From Naegleria gruberi (Eukaryota), in assembly GCA_000004985.1 (NCBI GenBank), contig GG738868.1: a stretch of 64,000 nucleotides of DNA, one strand, 5' to 3'. The translations under genes and the position numbers were made by a program. How positions within the stretch are numbered: the first letter of the stretch is position 1; each line of letters begins with the position of its first letter. Under the pieces are notes generated by a model. That model was given only the letters and a program-made list of their open reading frames with translations, was not told where the DNA came from and ran no database searches. Below, piece by piece: positions 2,916-45,509 of this stretch.

Positions 2916-5760
2916 TTACAATAATTGAGTGAAAAGTAAAATGCAGAATACAAATAAGGCAATATCGTAATTCCACATCAATGCACCACTCACTTGAGCA
3001 TTTCTTCCATTGGAAGTAGATGGCATTGGATTTGATGATTCCAAAGTAATTGCATTCACAAATTCCAAAGGTCTTTCAGGAGTATTTACAAGAGTTCCCT
3101 TTTGATCGAGAACTTTGATTTTTGTAATGAATGAACCAATTTGAGGATTATTCTTGGCTTGGAAGGTGAATTTGATAGTTTGTCCTGATTTCATAAATTC
3201 AACAACTGGAATGGTGATTGAAACAGTTCCTTGTTTTGGAGAATTTGACACGATGGCAGTGGAATTCAAAGCTGTTCCTTCTACCATTGTAATTTTCAAA
3301 GTTCCATTGTTGAGGAGTGGAATGGAAGATCCACTGAATGTGAAAACAAACTTTTCTCCATAGAAATGTCTCACTGGTGTCCAAGTTGTAATCTTAACTT
3401 GGTAGGTTGTATCCTTACCAAACATGGTATCCAAAAGATCCAATGAAGCACAAGGTGAATCTTCATATGGAGCAACACCACATCCAACAATCATATCATT
3501 TGGCATCCAAGCTGTCAAATTTGAAATACTGGCCTTGGCAGCGTCACTCACTGGAAAACTCCAAGCATCACAAAATGGTCCCAAATTTCTCCCGACCACT
3601 TTACTAAATCTCGTCATCCATTGATCTCTTTTCTGATCGTCATTCTGTGGTTGTGGTCCATTCTTTTGATAATCAACAAAGGTCTTCCTGATGGCAACCC
3701 AACCAAATGCTTGAATCAAATCCAAGTAGAAGAGCAATCCAGCACTTGTCCAATCACCCTTAAATGGTTGTGTGTTACCCTTGTAGGTTGTTTCGAGTCC
3801 TCTTGGTGGATTGAAACCTTTACCATAGGTGTTGGCACTGTCTGGATAGTGTTCCTCAAGGTAGAGACTGAAGATGTTGCATGTTACTTCACCAGATTGA
3901 TCGTATGTCCAGGCACCTTCTTGGAAATTGTGTCCCAATTCGTGGTAATGACCCCAACGTCCTGGAGTATTCTTTAATTGACCCAAGTTGGCAGGGTTGA
4001 CTGGAAGAATAGTTCCAACGTTCTGATCTAGAAAAGTCATAAAAGGATAGCCCTGAATGCATATAGCCAGCAGATATTTGAATATCAGCTTGCATTCTTT
4101 CCTTATAATCTCTTGTTTGTCTTTGAGATAGTTCATAATACATGGCCACAACATTTCCCCAATATTTGGCCACAGTCGAAACTTCTGACAACTGTCTGGC
4201 TGTTGGAGTGGCTTGTACATTGAAAGCAAAATGTTCTGATTCAATCTCAACCCATGGTCCTGGATAATTTCTAATGGTGCTGTTCCATTCTTGATCGGTG
4301 TGAATTCCATCCTTGAAAAATGGAGTTTTAACAACTTGTCCAATAACTGTCACATCAACAGAGAGTGGAATTGAAGAGACTTCAATATAAATAGTACCGC
4401 CATTCAAGCAAGTAATGGTTCCAGTAGAGTTGGTTGTGGCACTAATTGAAAAAGTTTTGGAAATGGATGGCCATCTACTCCAGGAATCAAGATGTGCAAT
4501 TCCATCAGTGTGTCCACCAATTCTGACATTGGACACACCCTTTGGATTGGACAAGATAACTTCCAAAGTAGCTCCAGGCAAAGCATAGAAACCAGTACAT
4601 TGCCATCTCTTTCTATTTGTGGATACATTCATTTTCAATGTTTCAGTTGGAGCATTTCTATAGGTCAATCCATTATTTGGTAAACCTGGAAATTGTTCTC
4701 CAGCCAAAACTTCTGGATTATTGTCAATTGGTAAAACTTTAGCTTCATTCAAGACGTCAATCATGAAAATGCAAAGTTTAGGCATGTTGGAAGAAACAGG
4801 AAACTTGATTTCAACTCCTGTACATACAGATTCGTATACAGATTTTGCCTTTCCAATAGTTTCAATAGAATTTGGACTAATTGGTTGTTGGAGAGTTGCA
4901 TAAACATTTGATAACATATTTCCAACAGCTTGAACATCAGAACTTTGAATTAATGAAGCATTCACAGCAAATTGATTCTCAATCTGAACCAATTTGAAAT
5001 ACGGATTCATATCCGAAATTGGAATATTCAATGAGGAAACAAAGGCACCACTTGCAAAATAGTAAGTATAGAAAGAGACACCAAGTTTTGCAAAGAGTAC
5101 ATTGCCAGGGAATTGATTTCCTTGCAAGGAGTGTGCCCATGCTGTGGAAACAACTATAATTCCTCCACCTCTGGCCAAGAACGCATCCATCATTTGTTGC
5201 ATTTGAGGAGTAACTTGACCAACACTGTTAAGATTCATAATGACCAAGTCAACTGTTTCCAATGGAAGAATAGTTGTATCGAATGCACTAGTTGTCTTAT
5301 TTTGGACGAAACCTGGAATTTGATTATAGAAAGAAGCACCATTGACACCATGAAGTAAATATTTGGTTTGTTGTTTGTTGCCAGAGGCCCATTTTGCACA
5401 ATTAACAAGTAAACTACCCAAACTAGAGGTTGTAGATGAGGTTGTGGCATAACCATTGTGGCCAAATGCACAAATCTTTCCACTACTTGGATTGGAATTG
5501 TAGGTTGCAGCCATGGCCACAGGTGTGGTTCCAGCAACAATTAGTGGAACAGCGTTGGAGCCATGGGCAAAGAAGTAACCAGCAGCAGAGGATGGGATAT
5601 CAGTAACATTTACAAGAAGAGTACGTCTTACAGTGTCCAAGTCAGTTAAGGACATGCATGTGGCAGAGTTGACTGACAAGAGAATACAAATCAAACATGC
5701 AATAAAAGCAAAAGCACATAGAGTAGTGCTGTTGCTGTTATTAGAATTGTTTAATTTCAT
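2916..5760 (-). CDS. Secreted M60-like (enhancin/TCAF-like) zinc metallopeptidase; reading frame disrupted near 4030-4070
   Basis: ORF 3889..5760 opens with a signal-peptide-like N-terminus (MKLNNSNNSNSTTLCAFAFIACLICILLSV). ORF 2916..4343 carries the HEXXH zinc motif (GRWGHYHELGHNFQEGAW) and ends in a hydrophobic tail (ALMWNYDIALFVFCILLFTQLL) compatible with a GPI or TM anchor. The two ORFs overlap by 455 nt in different frames. The sequence ...QISAGYMHSG reads in one frame and YPFMTFLDQN... in the other, and no GT donor is visible between them. Confidence 0.7.
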
Positions 5761-12009: not shown

Positions 12010-14410
12010 TTATTTAATGAACCCTTTTAATTGTTTGTAGGTCTTTGATACTCCTCTTATGGAAATAGAGGATTGTGATAATTTCAATGAAAATTTACCA
12101 ACCAAGTGACCAGTCATGACAATTTTATCTGGATTACGTCCATCAGTTTGCACAAATGGAACAAGATAACATTTGCCTGCTCTAAGAACTAATTCATCAG
12201 TGTAAGTGGAATTGTTACACTTAATAACCTTAGATTCAGATCCAGTTGCCACCACCACATCATTCTGAACAACAATGAAAGAGAAGAAGGTTGGTTTGGC
12301 TTGCCCTATATCCTTTCTGAAACGTTTTCCAAGTTGATGAAGACCAAAGTAGGCATCATGTTGATTCTCTCCAATGTCTACACAAATTACAGGATATGAA
12401 GAAGAATCCTGAACAGGAAAGCTTTGCATTGGTACTGAAATATCTGATCTGAAATAAGATGGTTCATATCTACAAAGTGAAATAGTATCAAACCAACTCA
12501 AAAAATCATTAAAAGACATAAAGAAACGTCCATCATCAGCATCACTATAACCAGCCTCTCTCTTCATCTCAACAGTCCAACTATGGAAATTGGTTAATTG
12601 AATCTTGAAAAAAGTTAACTTACTTTGGATCTCGGTCACTCCAAGCTCCTGTCCATTCTCCTTTACCCCAAGGATTTCTTATGTACACTAATTTGAGGTT
12701 TCTCACTTCCTTACATGCAAGGAAAGCATACGCATGGTTTGCAACAAGACCCATCTTGTTACATCCATTATCATCATCTATTGTACTGCAACAGATAAAG
12801 TTATTCTTCTTTACAGCATCAATCAATTGCTTCCACAATTGATCCTTATTCTTTTGATTCTTTACAAAAATATTATGAGATGGATAACCTGTTAACAATT
12901 CAAAAGCCTCAATTGGGTTACCTCCTTCAATATTCAAGTAATACCCACATACTTTAGAGTAGGCTTTTTCAAGTGCAATAACCCACAACTCTGGAGACTT
13001 GTTATATGCAAATAGAGGCGTTCTAGTTCCATTTCTAACTGGGAAGTAATCATCAATGATGACCTTTCTGAACTCACCCCCTATACAAAGATTCAACTCA
13101 TAAATACCCACTGGATTCATTATTTTGGTAGAGAACAATCTTTCAATGAGGATTGGTTCTCTGGCTATGCACGAGAGAGCTGACAAGAAGTAGCAATCTC
13201 CAAGCGATCCCTGTTTAATATCATCAGGCTCAATACCATCGTGGAAAAGAGCAAACTTGGGACCAAGCATTTCTGGAGCTCTCATAAATGTGCACTCTGG
13301 ATAACTCTTTTGATTAGGACCCAATATCGATTTTGCATTTGGAGGAAAGTCAGCATCATTAAATGGTACTCCAGCATTAATTGCATTTATAACTTGCTTA
13401 CTGATAACTCTGAGTGTAGCAAAACTTTCCAAAGCTTTTCTGATGTTGTCATTCTTTTGACTATTGTCCAAAATTTCACCATATCTACACTCTGAAATGA
13501 AAGCAGAAAATTCCTTGTCTTCTCTCAATGAATTGATTCTTTGGTCCATAGCATGAGCTTCATTGTACATAATTTCGGCAATCTTCTTCTGAATGCCTGA
13601 ATATCTCTTTACCAACAATCTCATAGCCGTGAATCTTTTTCTATCTATATATTCCAAGTGTGATAAAATATTTCCTAGATACATGTCAAATGTTTCCTTT
13701 TCCGTATAATATTCCTTAATTGCTTGATTGTTTTCCTGTTCAATCTTAACAAGCTGCCTTTCACAATCTTTAATAGTATTTTCTAGCTGTCTTGTCTCAT
13801 CTTCTGTAAGTGATGGATTGCTCTGCAATTCAGTCGTTGAATCTTGAAGAAGAATTTTATGTTTGAAAGCCTTATTTTTCACTCCATCCAATTTCTTTAT
13901 ACATTTTTTCAATCTAGCATGACATAGAGCTTCTTCTTTCTTGGCGGTCTTAATATGTTTTAGCAAGTCTTTCTTCAATTGAGTCAAATCAACATTAACC
14001 ATATGAAAATCATTATCTGTTTTTTTATATTCTTCACCTAGGTTCCCAAGACTAGCAGCTAATTTGTCAAAAACACCATAATCTTCACTGTTATGATGAT
14101 TGAACAATCATGCATTTCAATTATAAAAATAACAGATTAAAGAATTAGCATTAACTACTTACTCTATTCGACTTTGTACCTTTATGAGAGATATTTGATG
14201 GTATTCATTGGCCATGTTCTTGTACATCTTTTTTGTTTTCTCTACAATCTTATGAAAATGCCCGATTTCTACCAAGTATTTATTCAATTGCTGAATAACC
14301 TCAGGAAATTTATCTTTCAAAGCGAGGGAGTAGGGCGTATTAGAGCCACTATCGAAATCAACATTCGGTTCAACAGCATACAACTGCGGTTTTGCCATGA
14401 CTGCACCCAT
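12010..14410 (-). CDS. Calpain-like cysteine protease (CysPc plus domain-III-like) with an approximately 330-aa N-terminal coiled-coil/BAR-like extension and a predicted N-myristoylation start
   Basis: Three exons: 14163-14410 (MGAVMAKPQLYAVEP...VQSRI), 12624-14087 and 12010-12580. Introns at about 14088-14162 (75 nt, GTAAGT...AACAG) and about 12581-12623 (43 nt, GTAAGT...CCATAG). The catalytic core carries the Cys motif (QGSLGDCYFLSALSCIA), the His region (GLVANHAYAF) and the NPWG motif. The post-splice junction DPN-WTVEMKREAGYSDADDGRFFMSFNDFLSWF matches the canonical calpain end of domain II. The domain-III-like C-terminus follows. Confidence 0.8.
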
Positions 14411-23078: not shown

Positions 23079-26000
23079 TTAATAAATATCAATATCGGAG
23101 AAGGTTTGTAATTTAAAGGTATTCTTGGAAGCATTAATAATAATCTTGTGATATGGACCTTGGAGTTCACCATCCATTAGAATAGAGAATGGTAAGCTTT
23201 GACTTTCGACAGTTATTGTAGCAACATGATAATTGAGACCAGCATCACCATCTCTCATCTTCTTCTTCTTCTTGCTGCCAGTTTCTTCGGCAAACACTTC
23301 GAGCCATGGTTGACTTGGTGCAACAAATGAACCTCTATCTCCAAATAAGCTGCATGATTGAATAGAAATGGAATTGTAAGTCTTTGTTCCTTCATTGATT
23401 TCAGATGAACGATTTTCTTCTCCTGTAGGATCCATAGGAACATAATTGACATTGAGTGGAATTCCTGTAAATTTGAATTGTTTGTTTTCCAAAATTTCTT
23501 CAATATTGGTGGCTTCAATCTTATTTTCACGTTGATAGGCATGAGCTTCGGCCAAAATACCAATGTCCAAACGTTGACAGAATGATAGAGCAAGTAAACT
23601 CTTTGTTGATTTTTGCCTAGTATTGTTTGAGCTGTCATATGTTAAACAGAGAGTAGGATAAATATGAACAGGATATGAACGATGTCCATCAATAAAGTAG
23701 TCATTCAACAAACTTCTCAAGAATTTGTGTGGAGTTCTAATTTTCTTGTTTGGTTTGTAATCGGCTAGCTTAACCATTTCTCTCTTATTCAATTTCATTT
23801 GAGGAACAAAGAGTGAGGAGCCCCTTGAAGCCAAATATGATCTACCAGATCTCTTATCATCAAATTCATTTCCTATTGTCTTGTTAAAAGATGTCATATG
23901 TGGCAAAATTGGTACCTTACTAAGGAGTGGGTAATGAACATGTCTTGAGAACCAACCGTCATACTTTTCCAACCAACTTGAAAGATAATTGTTAGTACCA
24001 AGTGGTAACAAATAAACTCTAAGCTCTTCGCTTGGTAAATTCTTGATAATACTATTCTTGTAAGCAAGTTCAAGAGATTGAACAAAACGTTGCAAAGTTC
24101 CACTGCCACCAGCAAGAGCAATATCAATTTGGAATGATCCTCCACTTTCAGCAGCTTCTGTACGAGCAGCGGTAATCAAAGTTTTCAAAGTTTCATAATA
24201 ACATGATTTTGGATAAGACTTCTTTTCCAATTGCAAGTTTGTAAGTTCATCTTCTTCTGGCATTTGAATAAACTCAATATCAACATCAGGTAATTTAGGT
24301 GCTTGATTTCTGACAAGCTTGAAAATTTCTCCAGTTGGCTTGAATGATTGAATTTGTTTAGCAATTTGCAAAAGTTTGTTATCATCAGAAGAAGTATCAC
24401 AGACAGCATCATAGAATTCAGAAATAGCACTGGCAGATAAATCTGACAATTCCTTGGTCATCTTTTTAACATCAGAGTTGGCCGATTCTTCATAAATGTT
24501 CAAAACGAGGTTAGCTCTACACTGAACAATTTCATCTTCAGCAAAGTTATTGGTCAAGTCCACACGTTCAATTAAATGATCGGCATAATTTGAGAATCCA
24601 TTGAAAAGAAGAAAAACTTTTCTTCTTTTCATGATACTTTTTCCTTTGCTGTCTGTGACTCTCTTTACACTTCTTTCAAATCTTTCTCTCATTAAAATAC
24701 CAGGTGAATTTTGTTCTTTGAGACACATTGCCAAAGTATTGTGACACAAACCACCAACAGGAAGTGGTTCCAAAAAGAATCTTTGCAGTAAGGTCATTAA
24801 TTCTGGTAATTTCTTACTCTTTCTTGAAATTACTAATTGTGGTAATAAAAGCTTCATAAAATTGAAAACATTCTTCAAAGCAACAGAATCATAACTTTCA
24901 GAGACCATAGACTTATTAGAACATGTTGAAATTACTAATGTCATGAGATCATTGAGAACATTTTCTGTATACTTTGGTAAATGTGAGACAACAGTCTTGA
25001 GTCTTTCGTAAACAATAGCACCAATGCAAATCAATGGATCATGTAAACTCAAAGATGGTCTCAATGAGTAATCACTTTCTTTCACAACATCATAATCGAC
25101 ACATACGTGCATATACTTGTAGAGAGCATCAACGGGTGGACAGAGAGATTCACAAATTTCATCACCAGCAGAATCATTGTGAGTTTGGAAACGTAAATTT
25201 TTCCACAATTGAAGGACAGACATCAGGGAAGCATTTTGGAAATCGAATCTATAGAATGATGAAATAAAAATCAAGGATTGCATAATTGCTGATCTTTCGT
25301 ATAATTGGCTCTTTGAGAAAAGATCACCATCAGCAAAAAGACTAGTGTTGAAAGAGAAGTATTTGTTTTCTTGCAATGAAGAAATAATGTCAGATAATTC
25401 CAAGTCATCATCTGTTAAAACATCAGCACTTATTGTGTTTGCTGTGCTTGTAGAATCTCCTGGTTTAGCCATGTCATAGTAGGCATTAACAAATTCTGAA
25501 ATCCTTTCATCAACTTGAACAACTAAATGTCTATATCAAGATGAATATATTATTATTTGAAAATACTAAACTTACCTATTCTTGACTTCCTTTCTCTTGG
25601 CAAGTAAAGGGTGATGGGCATCATACTTTTGTGATCCCAATTTAAGATAATCAATAACCTCTTGCAGAGAACTTTCCTTATCATCCACATATTTATCATT
25701 TTCAGAGTTTTCGTTCAATTCTTGTTTTAATTTTAATGCCTTCTCTTCCAAGATGAGAAGTTTACCTAAAAGTACAGTCAAGTATACAGTGGCCAAGTTC
25801 GGATTTGTAAGTTGATTCCATAACTTTTCATAGGCCTTTTCATCTACACCACTAGTCTTGTTTTGTTTTCTGTTGAGAGTTTCATTTAACTCGGCAACAA
25901 ATTTCTTAACAATTTCGTGATCATATTGAATTTGATGGGAATCTGTTTCGCTCATTTCTGATGATGATTTTTCGTAGATTAAATCTTCCTCTTCAGGTTG

Positions 26001-26300
26001 TATTAATGGGTACAAGTATTCTAACTCTGTTAATATAAAATCTACTAGATATGAAAGCGATTTTACAGTAGGAGGTGAACAACGTAAAGAATTTGTAAAA
26101 TTAAACGGAAGTAAATAAAGTTTCTTGTTGTTGTTTTCGTAGTCTGGAAATGTTATACACGAAGGTGGTGAACAAAATGATGGTGTTTGGGAAACTGGGT
26201 AGGATAGAGGGTGAAGCAACAGCAACGGCCCTTTACTCTTTTTTTGTGTCTTGTTTGACATGTGAATATAAAGGTGATTGGTCTGATGTTGATGGGTCAA
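23079..26300 (-). CDS. Large conserved hypothetical protein (about 1040 aa, two exons)
   Basis: ORF 25572..26300 joins ORF 23079..25472 through a roughly 47-nt intron (GTAAGT...GATATAG) near 25525-25571. Junction reads ...KEVKNR-HLVVQVDERISEFVNAYYDMAKPGD... No domain I can name with confidence. Confidence 0.5.
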
Positions 26301-33108: not shown

Positions 33109-36100
33109 ATGGAACGTGCACCAGAGTTTATCAGTCACGATCGTTTCAGCCACTTTATCGCCAATGATGAGTGGAATTACAACTCCAACGAAAATATATT
33201 GAAACATATTTATACTGAAAAGAAGGCTCCGATCAGTTTATTTTCATACAAGATACAAAATGATGGCTTGATCGAAGAGGGTGTTGGTTATACACAATTA
33301 TTCAAGAGACCATTGTTCAATGATGTTGTTGGAAATGGACTTTTTGAAAAGGAGAAGAAGGAATCAAAGGTTGGAGATTCATTTGGTCCAAGTTGGGCTA
33401 CTTTTTGGTTTGAGATTAATTTCCAAGTGCCAAAAGAGTGGATCGGAAAGGAAGTACATTTTTTGTGGAATAGTAATAGTGAAGCTTTATTGTTTGATAA
33501 GAATGGTGTTGTATTGCAAGGTTTAAATGGTGGCGAAGGATGGGATAGACGTGAGGAATTTTACATTGATCAAAAATTAATTGATCAAGATGGAAGTTTA
33601 AAGTTTTATATTGAACTTGCTTGTAATGAAATGTTTGGAAATGGTTTTGGTGGACAAATTAATCCTCCAGATCCAAATCGTTACTTTAAGTTGAAAAAGG
33701 CTGAAATTGCCCTATTTGACAGATTGGCCTTTGATTTGATGTATGATTTCAAGATTGTGATGGAATGTGCAAAGGAATTGGACAGTAAGAGACATAGATC
33801 AAGAGAAGCTCTCATCACAGGAAATGAGATGTTAAAGGTTTTCGATCCAAACGATAGAGATTCTTGGCAAGAAGCTAGAGATATTGCTGCCAAATTCTTG
33901 GGTAAAAAGAATGGTGACTCTACTCACAATATTATTTCTGTTGGTCATTGTCACATTGACGTTGCTTGGTTGTGGCCTTATGCTGAGACAAGAAGAAAGG
34001 CAGGCAGAAGTTGGGCTAATCAATTGAAGTTTATGGAACAAAATCCAAATTTCCAATTCATGCAATCCCAAGCTCAATTATATGATTGGGTTAAGGAAGA
34101 TTATCCTGAACTTTTTGAAAGAATCAAGGCTAGAGCAAAAGAAGGTAAATTTATTCATGTTGGTGGATCTTGGGTTGAGACTGATGGTGTTCTCCCATCT
34201 GGTGAATCATTCTGTAGACAATTCCTTTATGGACAACGTTTCTTCAAGGAAGAATTTGGCTCTTATTGTACAGAATTCAGTCTTCCAGATAGTTTTGGTT
34301 ACTCTGCTGCATTCCCTCAAATTTTGAGATTGAGTAAGATTGATTCATTCATTACTCAAAAACTTTCTTGGAATTTATTCAACAAATTCCCTAACTCTAC
34401 ATTTGTTTGGGAAGGTTTGGATGGTTCTAATGTATTTACTCATTTCCCTCCAGCAGACACATACAATGCCAGTTTGCAAGTTAAGGAGTTGTTATTCACT
34501 GAAGAAAACTTTAAAGATAAGGAAATTAGCTCATACAGCTTGTGTCTCTATGGTCATGGTAAGTTTTTTTCAAAAATCATTTTATCAATTCTATTTCACT
34601 TATATATTTATTACTATAGGTGACGGTGGAGGTGGTCCAGTTATTGATCATCTTGAAAGAATTAAGAGAATTCACGATGTTCAAGGTTTGCCTAGAGTAA
34701 TTGAACAAACTCCAAAGTATTTCTTTGATAAAGTTAAGGAAGAAAATAGAGAATATCCATTAAAGACATGGAGAGGTGAATTGTATTTGGAACTCCATCG
34801 TGGTACTTTCACAAGGTAAGTTTTTTCATTATTATTGAGCTATATCTTTTCATCTTTCACAGTCAAGCAGCTGTCAAGAAGGGAAATCGTAAGTGTGAAC
34901 TCATGTTGAGAGAAGCTGAATTATATGCCACATTGGCAAAGAATTTGGCTGGTTTCAATTATCCTCAAAAGGAATTTGAAAAATTGTGGAAGAATGTCTT
35001 ACTCAATACATTCCACGACGTTTTGCCTGGTTCTTCAATTGGTCTCGCCTATGCAGATGCAAGAGAAATTCATCAACAAGTTTTGAAACGTGCCAGCGAA
35101 ATTCGTTCTGATGCTCTTTTGGCTCTCACAAACAAGAATACCAAGACCAATGGAACTCAATTGGAAAAGGCAATAACTGTTTGGAACTCACTCCCTTGGG
35201 AAAGAAGAGAAATTGTGGAGATAGATTGTCCTCCTGAGGTATTGGGTGATAGAGTTTGTACTCAAAAATCAGCTGATGGAAAATGTTTGGCTCTTGTTCA
35301 ACTTCCATCCACTGGCTTTAAGACTGTTTCAGTTCAAGAAGCCATTGTTGCATCTGCCTCCTCTACCGAGTCTATGGTTACTTTGAACAAGAAGGGTCAT
35401 TCCTATGTATTGCGTAATCAATTTGTTGAAGTAATTATCAACGAACATACTGCCACAGTTGACATTATTGACTTGAAGAGCAATAGAAAACTTGTTCAAA
35501 ATGGTAATAGATTCGTTCTCTTCAATGATAAGTGTTTATTCTGGGACTCATGGGATGTAGAAATTAATCACTCAGAGAAAGAACTTCCAATCAAAGGATA
35601 TTGTGAAGGTTCATTAACTATTAAGGTTGTTGAGAGTGGTCCATTGAGATGTGTCTTGGAAGTTTTCCTTCCAATTAGTGAAACTAGCTCCCTTTCACAA
35701 ACCATTACGTTGAACTGTCTCTCATCAAGATTGGATATTGCAAACAAAGTTGATTGGCATGAAAAGCACAAATGCTTGAAAGTCAAGGTTCCAACTCATA
35801 TCTTCTCCGATCATGTTACCTTTGATCATCAATTTGGATTTATTAGACGTTCCAATTTGAAGAATACTAGTTGGGATGTTGCTAGATTTGAAGTTACTGT
35901 TCAAAAGTATATGGTCATTTCAGAATATGGCAGTGGTGTTGCCTTAATGCAAGATTGTAAATATGGATGCTCTGCAACACAAGACGGTACTTTGTACTTG
36001 ACCTTATTGAGAGCTCCAAAATCACCTGATGCTAATTGTGATATGGGTCATCATGAATTCACCTATGCTATTCAATCATACAATGCCTCAACATTCCAAG

Positions 36101-43923: not shown

Positions 43924-45509
43924 ATGGTTCAAAATCTCATACACAAAAGTTATTTTTACACTCAATTTCAACCAAATCAACAACTAGCTGCATGTTCAAG
44001 TGATTTGTCAACACCATCCTCAAACTTCTTGACCGTGTTGACCATTAATTTTACAACAAGCTTATTCATCAAATCTCGTTCTCAAATCTCTCTTAAAAAA
44101 ATGATCAAAGTCAAACACCACAAAACCAATACCGAATTAATCTCCTACAAGTTTCTATTGGAAAATTATGTCAAGGCAATGGATAAGGAACTCTATGAGA
44201 AGGTGATCTTCTCCAATACTAATAATAATACTAGTAATAACAATAATCAAAATGATGAAAAGAATATCATTGATAACAATTCAACTAATGATCATTTGGA
44301 TACATGTATCGGAATCATGTTGGGAATTGTATGTGGTGATTGTCTTGGATCTCCATGCGAATTTTATACTTTCAAGCAGATTAGAAGCATGTACTCGGAT
44401 GATTTGTTTTATAATATGATAACTGTGGATGAGGAGAGGGAGGCTGGTGTTTATACAGATGATACTGAAATGGTAAGTTTAGAGAATGAATTAAATTGTT
44501 TCGAATATTGGAATGAAAATAGGCATTGGCTTTAACAAGTTGTATCATTCACAAAAGAGAAATTAATGCAGATTTATTTACCAAGTTCTATGTCAAGTGG
44601 TTTAGAGATATTGGGCCTAGAAGAGGATATGGACCTGCAGTTTCCGTGATTTTAAACAAACTCTATAAGAATGAAATGACTTTCAGAGAGTCAGCCACAA
44701 GTTTTTATAAGGATGGAAGTTATGCGAATGGTGCACTGATGAGGATAGCTCCATTGGCTGCCATTTTGTTGAATTCTGAGGAGGCATTCAATGATGAGTT
44801 GATCTATCAATTGGTTTATACTGCATCCATGACTACCCATGTAAATATTGAGGCTGTGGATGCTGCATTCCTTCAAGTGAGAGCAATTATTGAGCTCGTG
44901 AAAAAGTGGAAAGGAAAATTGGATGAATTCAAACCACAAGAATTTCTCGAATGGATTATTTCCACATCCAAGAGTAAGGCCATGAGAGAAAAATTGGCAA
45001 TCTTACAGGATATTCTCTATGGGCCAAATGCTATACAAGATCCAGGAATGGACAATCTCAATGATCCTAAATCCATGACTCAAGAATACATTCAAAAAGT
45101 TGATCTATTACTGGAAAAAACAGTTGGAAATACTCAATTCGGATTTGGATTTCAAGTGAAAGCTGTGGATGCATTCTCAAATGTCTTGTTCATTTTCTTG
45201 CAATATTACAAGCATCCAGAGCAGGCAATTGTTAGAATGGCTACCATGGGAGGAGATGCTGATACCACATCAGCCATTTTGGGTGGGCTTATTGGAGCAT
45301 TGCATGGAACCAATTGGATTCCACAAAGATGGTTCGACAAGCTTGAAAATGATGGTGATTATGGAAGGGATGCAATTATTAGAATGGCTATCAGGCTCTC
45401 TAAATTGACTTTCAAATCGGAATTGAGCACGAATGATGATAAGGAAAAGCATGTCACTCTTTCTTCTGAAGACGTCGGATTTGAAAAGTTTAAAGAAAGA
45501 TTTGAATAA
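43924..45509 (+). CDS. ADP-ribosylglycohydrolase family protein (ARH/DraG-like); start codon uncertain
   Basis: Two exons: up to about 44472, then 44523-45509. Intron about 50 nt (GTAAGT...AAATAG). Junction reads YTDDTEM-ALALTSCIIH. ARH motifs GIVCGDCLGSPCEF and MGGDADTTSAILGGLIGALHG. The low-complexity N-terminal region leaves the true start anywhere between 43924 and about 44190. Confidence 0.75.

What the first reader, a model, noticed from the sequence alone, without database searches (positions are those of the whole stretch)
3889..4343. M60-like metallopeptidase gene with a disrupted reading frame (two long ORFs overlapping by 455 nt)
The signal-peptide-bearing N-terminal ORF (3889..5760) and the HEXXH-bearing C-terminal ORF (2916..4343) clearly belong to one M60-like peptidase. 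They are in different frames, and both stay open across a 455-nt overlap.

Reading the minus strand, the sequence ...DIQISAGYMHSG is in the upstream frame and YPFMTFLDQN...GRWGHYHELGHNFQ in the downstream frame. The switch falls at a GGG/CCC run near 4051-4053. No GT donor occurs in the interval, so a canonical intron is unlikely.

This points to one of three things: a homopolymer indel from assembly or sequencing, a recent pseudogenising mutation, or, far less likely, programmed frameshifting.
Basis: partly seen in the sequence, partly recalled or inferred. Interest (0 to 1): 0.5.

Follow-up and report, generated by a model that had tools for sequence, protein, structure and literature searches.

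The report
Single-base frameshift in Naegleria M60 peptidase
One surface metalloprotease gene of the amoeba Naegleria gruberi is broken by a single extra G in the reference genome, and the public annotation hides the break behind an invented 40-base intron; this is an ordinary sequencing error or very recent mutation, not a new mechanism.

Summary
The window is the Naegleria gruberi NEG-M reference. The two ORFs (3889..5760 and 2916..4343, minus strand) exist, overlap by 455 nt, and carry complementary halves of one Peptidase_M60 domain (profile 2-122 and 124-275). Removing one base gives YMHSGYPFMTFLDQN..., colinear with the paralogue XP_002672354.1 and with 11 metagenomic relatives, all of which cross this point in one frame. 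The nearest relative has TCT GGC TAT CCA, so the simplest reading is GGC plus one extra G.

The public model XP_002677182.1 (NAEGRDRAFT_67585) bridges the break with a 40-nt GT..AG "intron" (4001..3962). That intron is still almost certainly a gene-model patch. Its donor is GTCAAC, against GTAAGTT in 5 of 5 window introns. Its GC is 45% against 16-26%. It also costs 31-44 bits against profiles built from relatives.

The 377 codons downstream show no decay, and no recoding signal was found. I cannot tell a consensus error from a real recent or allelic frameshift; the odds are about even. Programmed frameshifting is about 3%. The finding is ordinary; its practical value is a corrected 947-aa protein.

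The parts
2916..5760 (-). Whole M60-like peptidase gene (NAEGRDRAFT_67585 / XP_002677182.1). Reading 5760..4051 and then 4049..2916 gives a 947-aa protein plus stop.
   Evidence: The repaired protein gives one Peptidase_M60 hit covering profile 2-275 (240.6 bits) plus M60-like_N.
3889..5760 (-). Upstream ORF, 623 aa. It has a hydrophobic N-terminal signal-like segment, a TCAF_N-like region, M60-like_N (about 4369..4656) and the first half of Peptidase_M60. Its last 53 codons (4050..3892) are out-of-frame read-through.
2916..4343 (-). Downstream ORF, 475 aa by the mechanical ORF call. Only 4049..2916 is genuine coding sequence: the second half of Peptidase_M60, a C-terminal beta-rich region and a hydrophobic C-terminal tail. 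4343..4050 is an off-frame open run.
4050..4053 (-). Shift site 'GGGC' (tca ggg c tat). One base is surplus. The simplest reading is an extra G in an ancestral GGC Gly codon.
   Evidence: sequence; relatives have GGC TAT, GGC TAC and GGT TAC; colinearity after removing one base.
3962..4001 (-). 40-nt 'intron' of the public gene model (GTCAACCC...CTCCAG). Judged to be an annotation patch, not a real intron.
   Evidence: splicing here reproduces XP_002677182.1 exactly; atypical donor and 45% GC; costs 31-44 bits against relatives' profiles.
4002..4050 (-). 49 nt that the public model translates out of frame (LSFYDFSRSERWNYSS plus the first base of the split Arg codon). In the correct frame this stretch and the 'intron' encode the conserved YPFMTFLDQNVGTILPVNPANLGQLKNTPG.
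   Evidence: This segment has 18 of 30 residues identical to paralogue P0002.
3930..3944 (-). HELGH zinc-binding motif (HEXXH) of the peptidase, in the downstream frame.
   Evidence: H606-H610 of the repaired protein; invariant in the relatives.

Best explanation
This is a single, otherwise intact gene for a secreted or surface-anchored M60-like zinc metallopeptidase of Naegleria gruberi. The reference sequence carries one surplus nucleotide in it, most simply an extra G that turns GGC-TAT into GGG-C-TAT at 4053..4050. I take the surplus base to be an error in the 2010 draft Sanger consensus, so the amoeba itself makes the full 947-aa enzyme by ordinary translation.

The 40-nt intron in the public model XP_002677182.1 is a patch that the gene predictor added to regain the frame. 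It does not exist in the mRNA.

Shown: the one-base lesion, its exact position, the colinearity of the repaired protein with relatives, and the atypical nature of the annotated intron.

Inferred: that the extra base lies in the consensus and not in the DNA. That step is little better than a coin flip against rival 1.
For: - Complementary Pfam halves in the two frames.
- Removing one base gives a protein colinear with paralogue P0002 and with L001, with GYMHSGYP invariant.
- All 11 full-length metagenomic relatives cross the site in one frame. The closest uses TCT GGC TAT CCA.
- Profiles built only from relatives prefer the repair by 31 bits (242.1 against 211.2) and by 44 bits (301.2 against 257.6).
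- Identity to the paralogue is 57% upstream and 63% downstream of the shift. There is no second lesion in the 377 downstream codons. That is what an artefact predicts.
- It is the only frame break among about 35 genes in the window that a canonical GTAAGTT intron does not explain.
- The reference is a Sanger draft (PMC9928731 Table 1).
Against: - The site lies inside a gap-free stretch of at least 64 kb with no ambiguous bases. Multi-fold Sanger consensus is normally accurate in such regions, and a 3-base run is not a hard homopolymer.
- No independent read or assembly could be consulted.
- Naegleria is described as a mainly heterozygous diploid reproducing clonally (PMC9928731), so a real null allele is equally natural.
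- The lack of decay also fits a very recent real mutation.
Confidence: 0.47

Rival explanations
1. The extra G is really in the DNA of NEG-M. It is a very recent pseudogenising frameshift, or one null allele of a heterozygous pair that the assembly happened to pick. The product would be a 623-aa protein that lacks the HEXXH site and ends in 53 junk residues. The intact paralogue NAEGRDRAFT_72631, or the other allele, would cover the function.
For: - The lesion lies in a gap-free contig with no ambiguous bases.
- Slippage in a short G run is a common real mutation.
- Naegleria is reported as a heterozygous, mostly clonal diploid.
- NEG-M is grown axenically. By my own inference, an extracellular glycoprotein-degrading protease may be dispensable under those conditions.
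- A second paralogue exists.
Against: There is no other lesion and no drop in conservation downstream (63% against 57% identity to the paralogue). The event would therefore have to be very recent. No independent data show the base is real.
Confidence: 0.42
2. The public annotation is right. A real 40-nt spliceosomal intron (4001..3962) restores the frame, and the protein is the 934-aa XP_002677182.1. Because the alternative frame still encodes the ancestral peptide, this would mean a recent frameshift rescued by use of a cryptic mini-intron.
For: - The boundaries are GT..AG.
- The 40-nt length is close to real introns in this lineage, which are 41-61 nt.
- Pfam Peptidase_M60 scores the spliced model as well as the repaired one, 242.7 against 240.6 bits.
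Against: - The donor is GTCAACCC. All five verified window introns and the intron in L001 have GTAAGTT[TA]. GC is 45% against 16-29%.
- There is no GTAAGT anywhere in the gene.
- The model replaces 30 residues that are 60% identical to the paralogue, including the YP conserved down to 31%-identity relatives, with 16 out-of-frame residues. That costs 31-44 bits.
Confidence: 0.04
3. The extra base is real, and the full-length enzyme is made by programmed +1 ribosomal frameshifting at UCA-GGG-C. Either the P-site tRNA-Gly slips from GGG to GGC, or GGC is read out of frame in place of the rare GGG codon. Either route yields ...HSGYP....
For: - GGG is the fifth-rarest codon in this window's genes, at 1.5 per 1000. 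CTA is also uncommon, at 4.8 per 1000.
- A +1 shift at this heptamer would give exactly the conserved protein.
- Both halves are intact.
Against: - None of 13 homologues (paralogue P0002, L001 and 11 metagenomic relatives) has a shift here.
- The 0-frame has no stop for 53 codons.
- There is no downstream structure, z = -0.19.
- A G inserted into GGC creates rare codons automatically, so their presence is not evidence.
- The searched literature has no report of frameshifting in Naegleria.
Confidence: 0.03

Closest known systems
Peptidase family M60 (enhancin / M60-like zinc metallopeptidases, Pfam PF13402 with PF17291), e.g. PDB 4FCA/5EV7 'conserved domain protein' and the SslE/AcfD-type lipoprotein 23PX
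   Same: Full-length PF13402 and PF17291 matches. An HELGH motif is present. The alignment to 4FCA (E = 1.1e-16) and to the AcfD homologue (E = 4e-14) is colinear through the junction.
   Different: This is a eukaryotic (heterolobosean) copy with a long N-terminal TCAF_N-like region and a hydrophobic C-terminal tail. No activity data exist. As deposited, the reading frame is broken.
Frameshift-bridging micro-introns in automated eukaryotic gene models (annotation artefact)
   Same: A short GT..AG segment of length 3n+1 sits just downstream of a one-base indel, so that two homology-supported halves join. A stretch of out-of-frame residues is left in the model.
   Different: Real introns in this genome are about as short (43-61 nt). 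Length alone therefore does not expose the artefact. Donor sequence, GC content and homologue colinearity do.
Eukaryotic +1 programmed frameshift sites (yeast Ty1 CUU-AGG-C, Ty3 GCG-AGU-U, antizyme UCC-UGA-U, Euplotes AAA-UAA); cited from my own knowledge
   Same: Formally, UCA-GGG-C has a rare 0-frame codon, and a +1 shift would give the conserved protein.
   Different: The site is not conserved in homologues. There is no 0-frame stop or very rare codon immediately afterwards, and no stimulatory structure. The resemblance follows automatically from inserting a G into GGC.

Membership tests
Peptidase_M60 (PF13402) metallopeptidase | Profile match above the Pfam gathering score over the whole domain | tested here: met
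   the repaired protein scores 240.6 bits (cut-off 25.8) over profile 2-275; the two ORFs cover 2-122 and 124-275.
Peptidase_M60 (PF13402) metallopeptidase | HEXXH zinc-binding motif with a downstream Glu | tested here: met
   HELGH lies at 3944..3930. It is followed by ...QSGEV..., whose Glu aligns with E in P0002 (AVEV) and in L001 (ATEL). The role of that Glu as third ligand is inferred, not shown.
Peptidase_M60 (PF13402) metallopeptidase | M60-like_N accessory domain upstream of the catalytic domain | tested here: met
   PF17291, 88 bits, residues 369-464.
Peptidase_M60 (PF13402) metallopeptidase | Proteolytic (glycoprotein or mucin) activity | not testable with these tools
   Needs biochemistry.
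Spliceosomal intron of N. gruberi (for the annotated 4001..3962 segment) | GT..AG boundaries and a length in the range of local introns | tested here: met
   GT..AG and 40 nt. Verified introns are 43-61 nt, and the one in L001 is 41 nt.
Spliceosomal intron of N. gruberi (for the annotated 4001..3962 segment) | GTAAGT-type donor and AT-rich interior, as in verified local introns | tested here: not met
   donor GTCAACCC and GC 0.45, against GTAAGTT[TA] and GC 0.16-0.29 in 6 of 6 verified introns; no GTAAGT in the gene.
Spliceosomal intron of N. gruberi (for the annotated 4001..3962 segment) | Removal gives a protein colinear with homologues | tested here: not met
   the spliced model scores 31-44 bits below the one-base repair; the conserved YP and the following residues are lost.
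Spliceosomal intron of N. gruberi (for the annotated 4001..3962 segment) | Spliced transcripts observed | not testable with these tools
   No transcript data are reachable here. Public NEG-M RNA-seq exists (PMC12344493).
Programmed +1 ribosomal frameshift | Shift site conserved in orthologues or paralogues | tested here: not met
   P0002, L001 and L002-L012 all read through in one frame.
Programmed +1 ribosomal frameshift | Slowly decoded or stop codon in the 0-frame at the shift site | tested here: inconclusive
   GGG is at 1.5 per 1000 and CTA at 4.8 per 1000, so both are rare. These codons arise automatically from inserting a G into GGC-TAT. The next 0-frame stop is 53 codons away.
Programmed +1 ribosomal frameshift | Stimulatory RNA structure | tested here: not met
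   MFE -28.6 kcal/mol against a shuffle mean of -28.0, z = -0.19.
Pseudogene (real disabling mutation) | Disabling lesion in the reading frame | tested here: met
   a one-base insertion upstream of HEXXH.
Pseudogene (real disabling mutation) | Further lesions or relaxed constraint downstream | tested here: not met
   no stop in the 377 downstream codons; 63% identity to the paralogue downstream against 57% upstream.
Pseudogene (real disabling mutation) | Lesion present in independent genomic reads | not testable with these tools
   the reachable collections hold no independent N. gruberi copy of this locus.

The most novel reading that the evidence does not exclude
The extra G is real, and N. 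gruberi still makes the full-length protease by +1 ribosomal frameshifting at UCA-GGG-C, driven by the very rare GGG codon. This would be the first recoding event described in Heterolobosea. A variant of this reading is that a recent frameshift is rescued by splicing a newly recruited, non-consensus 40-nt mini-intron.
Probability: 0.04. Interest if true: 0.6.

Novelty: already known. Interest (0 to 1): 0.12.

Why it matters
The main value is curation. The reference protein XP_002677182.1 / D2VFD2 (NAEGRDRAFT_67585) carries 16 nonsense residues and lacks 30 conserved ones just upstream of the catalytic HELGH. Any alignment, phylogeny or structure model built from it is wrong there. The corrected 947-aa sequence is given in this report.

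It also shows that in an organism whose real introns are only about 40-60 nt, a frameshift-bridging pseudo-intron cannot be recognised by length. Donor sequence, GC content and homologue colinearity are needed.

If the lesion is real, the axenic laboratory strain NEG-M has lost, or is heterozygous for, one of its two M60-like peptidases. That would be a minor point about relaxed selection in culture.

Tried and rejected
- **Pfam profile to choose between repair and annotated intron:** not discriminating, 240.6 against 242.7 bits. I replaced it with profiles built from relatives.
- **Independent copies of the locus:**
  - The look-up of encoding contigs for P0001 and P0002 found nothing on record.
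  - Exact look-ups of the repaired protein, ORF1 and three ORF2 variants found none in the collection.
  - The homologue search returned only the two N. gruberi models, one metagenome protein and one distant bacterial protein.
- **First metagenome scan, full-length alignment:** the patterns came from the N-terminal region and gave no relatives. The second scan, with the catalytic region, gave 12 loci at 27-39% identity. They are useful for colinearity but too distant to show the ancestral nucleotide in N. gruberi.
- **Other indel-type frame breaks in the window, as a gauge of assembly noise:** every other staggered pair of coding-like ORFs is explained by a canonical intron or is an off-frame run.
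- **RNA structure downstream of the site:** none.
- **Literature:** nothing on the gene accessions, on M60 in Naegleria or on frameshifting in Naegleria. The 2010 genome paper is not held in the library.
- **Dual coding as an explanation for the long double-open overlap:** rejected. The alternative-frame peptides resemble nothing, and the relatives support only one frame on each side.

Full report
**What is there.** On the minus strand, ORF 3889..5760 (623 aa) and ORF 2916..4343 (475 aa) lie in different frames and overlap by 455 nt. Pfam places M60-like_N and Peptidase_M60 profile positions 2-122 in the first ORF, and positions 124-275 in the second, with E-values 1.7e-26 and 3.7e-41. They are two halves of one domain. 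The sequence at the switch reads ...ggc tat atg cat tca ggg(4053-4051) c(4050) tat cct ttt atg.... Reading 5760..4051 and then 4049..2916 gives a 947-aa protein containing ...ISAGYMHSGYPFMTFLDQNVGTILPVNPANLGQLKNTPGRWGHYHELGHNFQ....

**Organism and public annotation.** The repaired protein matches 'predicted protein [Naegleria gruberi]' P0001, which is XP_002677182.1 / EFC44438.1 / D2VFD2 / NAEGRDRAFT_67585 (934 aa). It also matches a paralogue, P0002 (XP_002672354.1, NAEGRDRAFT_72631, 62% identity), and a metagenome protein, P0003 (53%). Splicing the window as 5760..4002 plus 3961..2916 reproduces P0001 exactly, 934 of 934 residues. The window is therefore the NEG-M reference, a Sanger assembly (PMC9928731 Table 1).

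The public model bridges the frame break with a 40-nt GT..AG intron at 4001..3962.

**Is the annotated intron real?** Almost certainly not, for three reasons.
- The model keeps 16 out-of-frame residues (LSFYDFSRSERWNYSS) and deletes the stretch YPFMTFLDQNVGTILPVNPANLGQLKNTPG. Read in the other frame, that stretch has 18 of 30 residues identical to the paralogue, and it aligns without gaps to P0002 and to L001.
- Five introns in the window were verified by frame restoration: in the calpain, ADP-ribosylglycohydrolase and GH38 mannosidase genes and in the gene at 23079-26300, with families confirmed. They are 43-61 nt long, all begin GTAAGTT[TA], and have 16-26% GC. The intron in the relative L001 is 41 nt, begins GTAAGTTT, and has 29% GC. 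The annotated segment begins GTCAACCC and has 45% GC. No GTAAGT occurs anywhere in the gene.
- HMMs built only from relatives score the one-base repair at 242.1 and 301.2 bits, against 211.2 and 257.6 bits for the annotated model.

**Nature of the lesion.** All 11 full-length metagenomic relatives (27-39% identity), and also L001, cross the site in a single frame with MHS[GS]YP. The closest, L001, has TCT GGC TAT CCA; L002 and L003 have GGC TAC and GGT TAC. The window's TCA GGG C TAT CCT is most simply GGC plus one extra G.

The lesion is isolated. Every other staggered pair of coding-like ORFs in the 64 kb is explained by a canonical intron or is an off-frame open run. Downstream of the shift there is no stop in 377 codons. 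Identity to the paralogue is 63% downstream against 57% upstream. The insertion is therefore either very recent or not real.

**Error or real mutation?** I could not resolve this.
- For a consensus error: the gene is perfectly intact apart from one base, and the reference is a draft Sanger assembly.
- For a real mutation or allele: the site lies in a gap-free stretch of at least 64 kb with no ambiguous bases. A 3-base run is easy for Sanger chemistry. Naegleria is described as a mainly heterozygous, clonally reproducing diploid (PMC9928731). NEG-M is kept axenically (PMC12344493), and a second paralogue exists.
- No independent copy of the locus is reachable.

I put error at 0.47 and a real frameshift at 0.42. 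Public NEG-M read sets exist and would settle it in minutes.

**Recoding.** UCA-GGG-C formally resembles a +1 shift site. GGG is the fifth-rarest codon here, at 1.5 per 1000, and CTA is at 4.8 per 1000. Those codons are exactly what inserting a G into GGC-TAT produces, so they are not evidence. No homologue shares the shift. The 0-frame runs on for 53 codons. The downstream RNA fold is no better than shuffled sequence, z = -0.19. The searched literature reports no frameshifting in Naegleria. I give it about 3%.

**The long double-open overlap.** The shift falls inside the longest +1 open run of the gene (104 codons) and inside one of its longest +2 runs (65 codons). Only about 2% of positions in this gene would give an overlap this long, and synonymous shuffles preserve both runs in 0.08% of trials. 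In other genes of the window the two runs have P of about 0.003 and 0.006. No hypothesis predicts this. A run of about 95 off-frame codons also occurs at an exon end of the GH38 gene. I record it as unexplained and probably coincidental.

**Comparison with known families.** The protein is a bona fide Peptidase_M60 / M60-like member. It has PF13402 and PF17291 matches and an HELGH motif. The nearest solved structures are 4FCA/5EV7 and an SslE/AcfD-type lipoprotein, and the alignment runs colinearly through the junction. Its signal-like N-terminus and hydrophobic C-terminal tail suggest a secreted or surface-anchored enzyme; this is inferred from the sequence only.

**Verdict.** This is an ordinary one-base frameshift in an annotated gene, masked by a patched gene model. 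The novelty is low. The practical value is a corrected protein sequence and a caution about short pseudo-introns in Naegleria annotations.

Noticed in passing
Paralogue P0002 (XP_002672354.1, NAEGRDRAFT_72631); not in the window: The 808-aa public model lacks about 135 residues, including the whole M60-like_N domain. The window gene and L001 both have that domain (alignment A1 columns about 369-503; no PF17291 hit). This may be another mis-joined or patched gene model, or an assembly gap.
   Followed up: no
L001:1600-1640 (JGI metagenome 3300002220 contig, 6017 nt): A 55%-identical heterolobosean-like orthologue has its HEL|GHNFQ zinc motif split by a 41-nt GTAAGTTT...AACAG intron. The prokaryote-style gene caller reported it as two genes (1-1713 and 1710-2501).
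   Followed up: partly
window 12581-12623(-), 25531-25575(-), 34559-34619(+), 34816-34862(+), 44473-44522(+): Five very short introns (43-61 nt), all with GTAAGTT[TA] donors, YAG acceptors and 16-26% GC. They lie in the calpain, GH38 alpha-mannosidase and ADP-ribosylglycohydrolase genes and in one unnamed gene. Splicing each one restores a single open frame.
   Followed up: yes
window 3889-4343(-) and 34334-34620(+): Unusually long off-frame open runs. The M60 shift sits where the +1 and +2 open runs of the gene are jointly longest (about 2% of positions). A similar run of about 95 codons lies at the end of GH38 exon 1. No explanation beyond coincidence was found.
   Followed up: partly
window 2919-2990(-) and 5660-5760(-): The peptidase has a hydrophobic N-terminal segment (LCAFAFIACLICILLSV) and ends in a hydrophobic tail (YDIALFVFCILLFTQLL). 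The paralogue ends similarly. This suggests a signal peptide plus a GPI-type or membrane anchor. No predictor was run.
   Followed up: no
window 1-64000: There are no N or ambiguous bases anywhere in the window. GC is a uniform 31-38%, and about 35 long ORFs are densely packed on both strands.
   Followed up: yes
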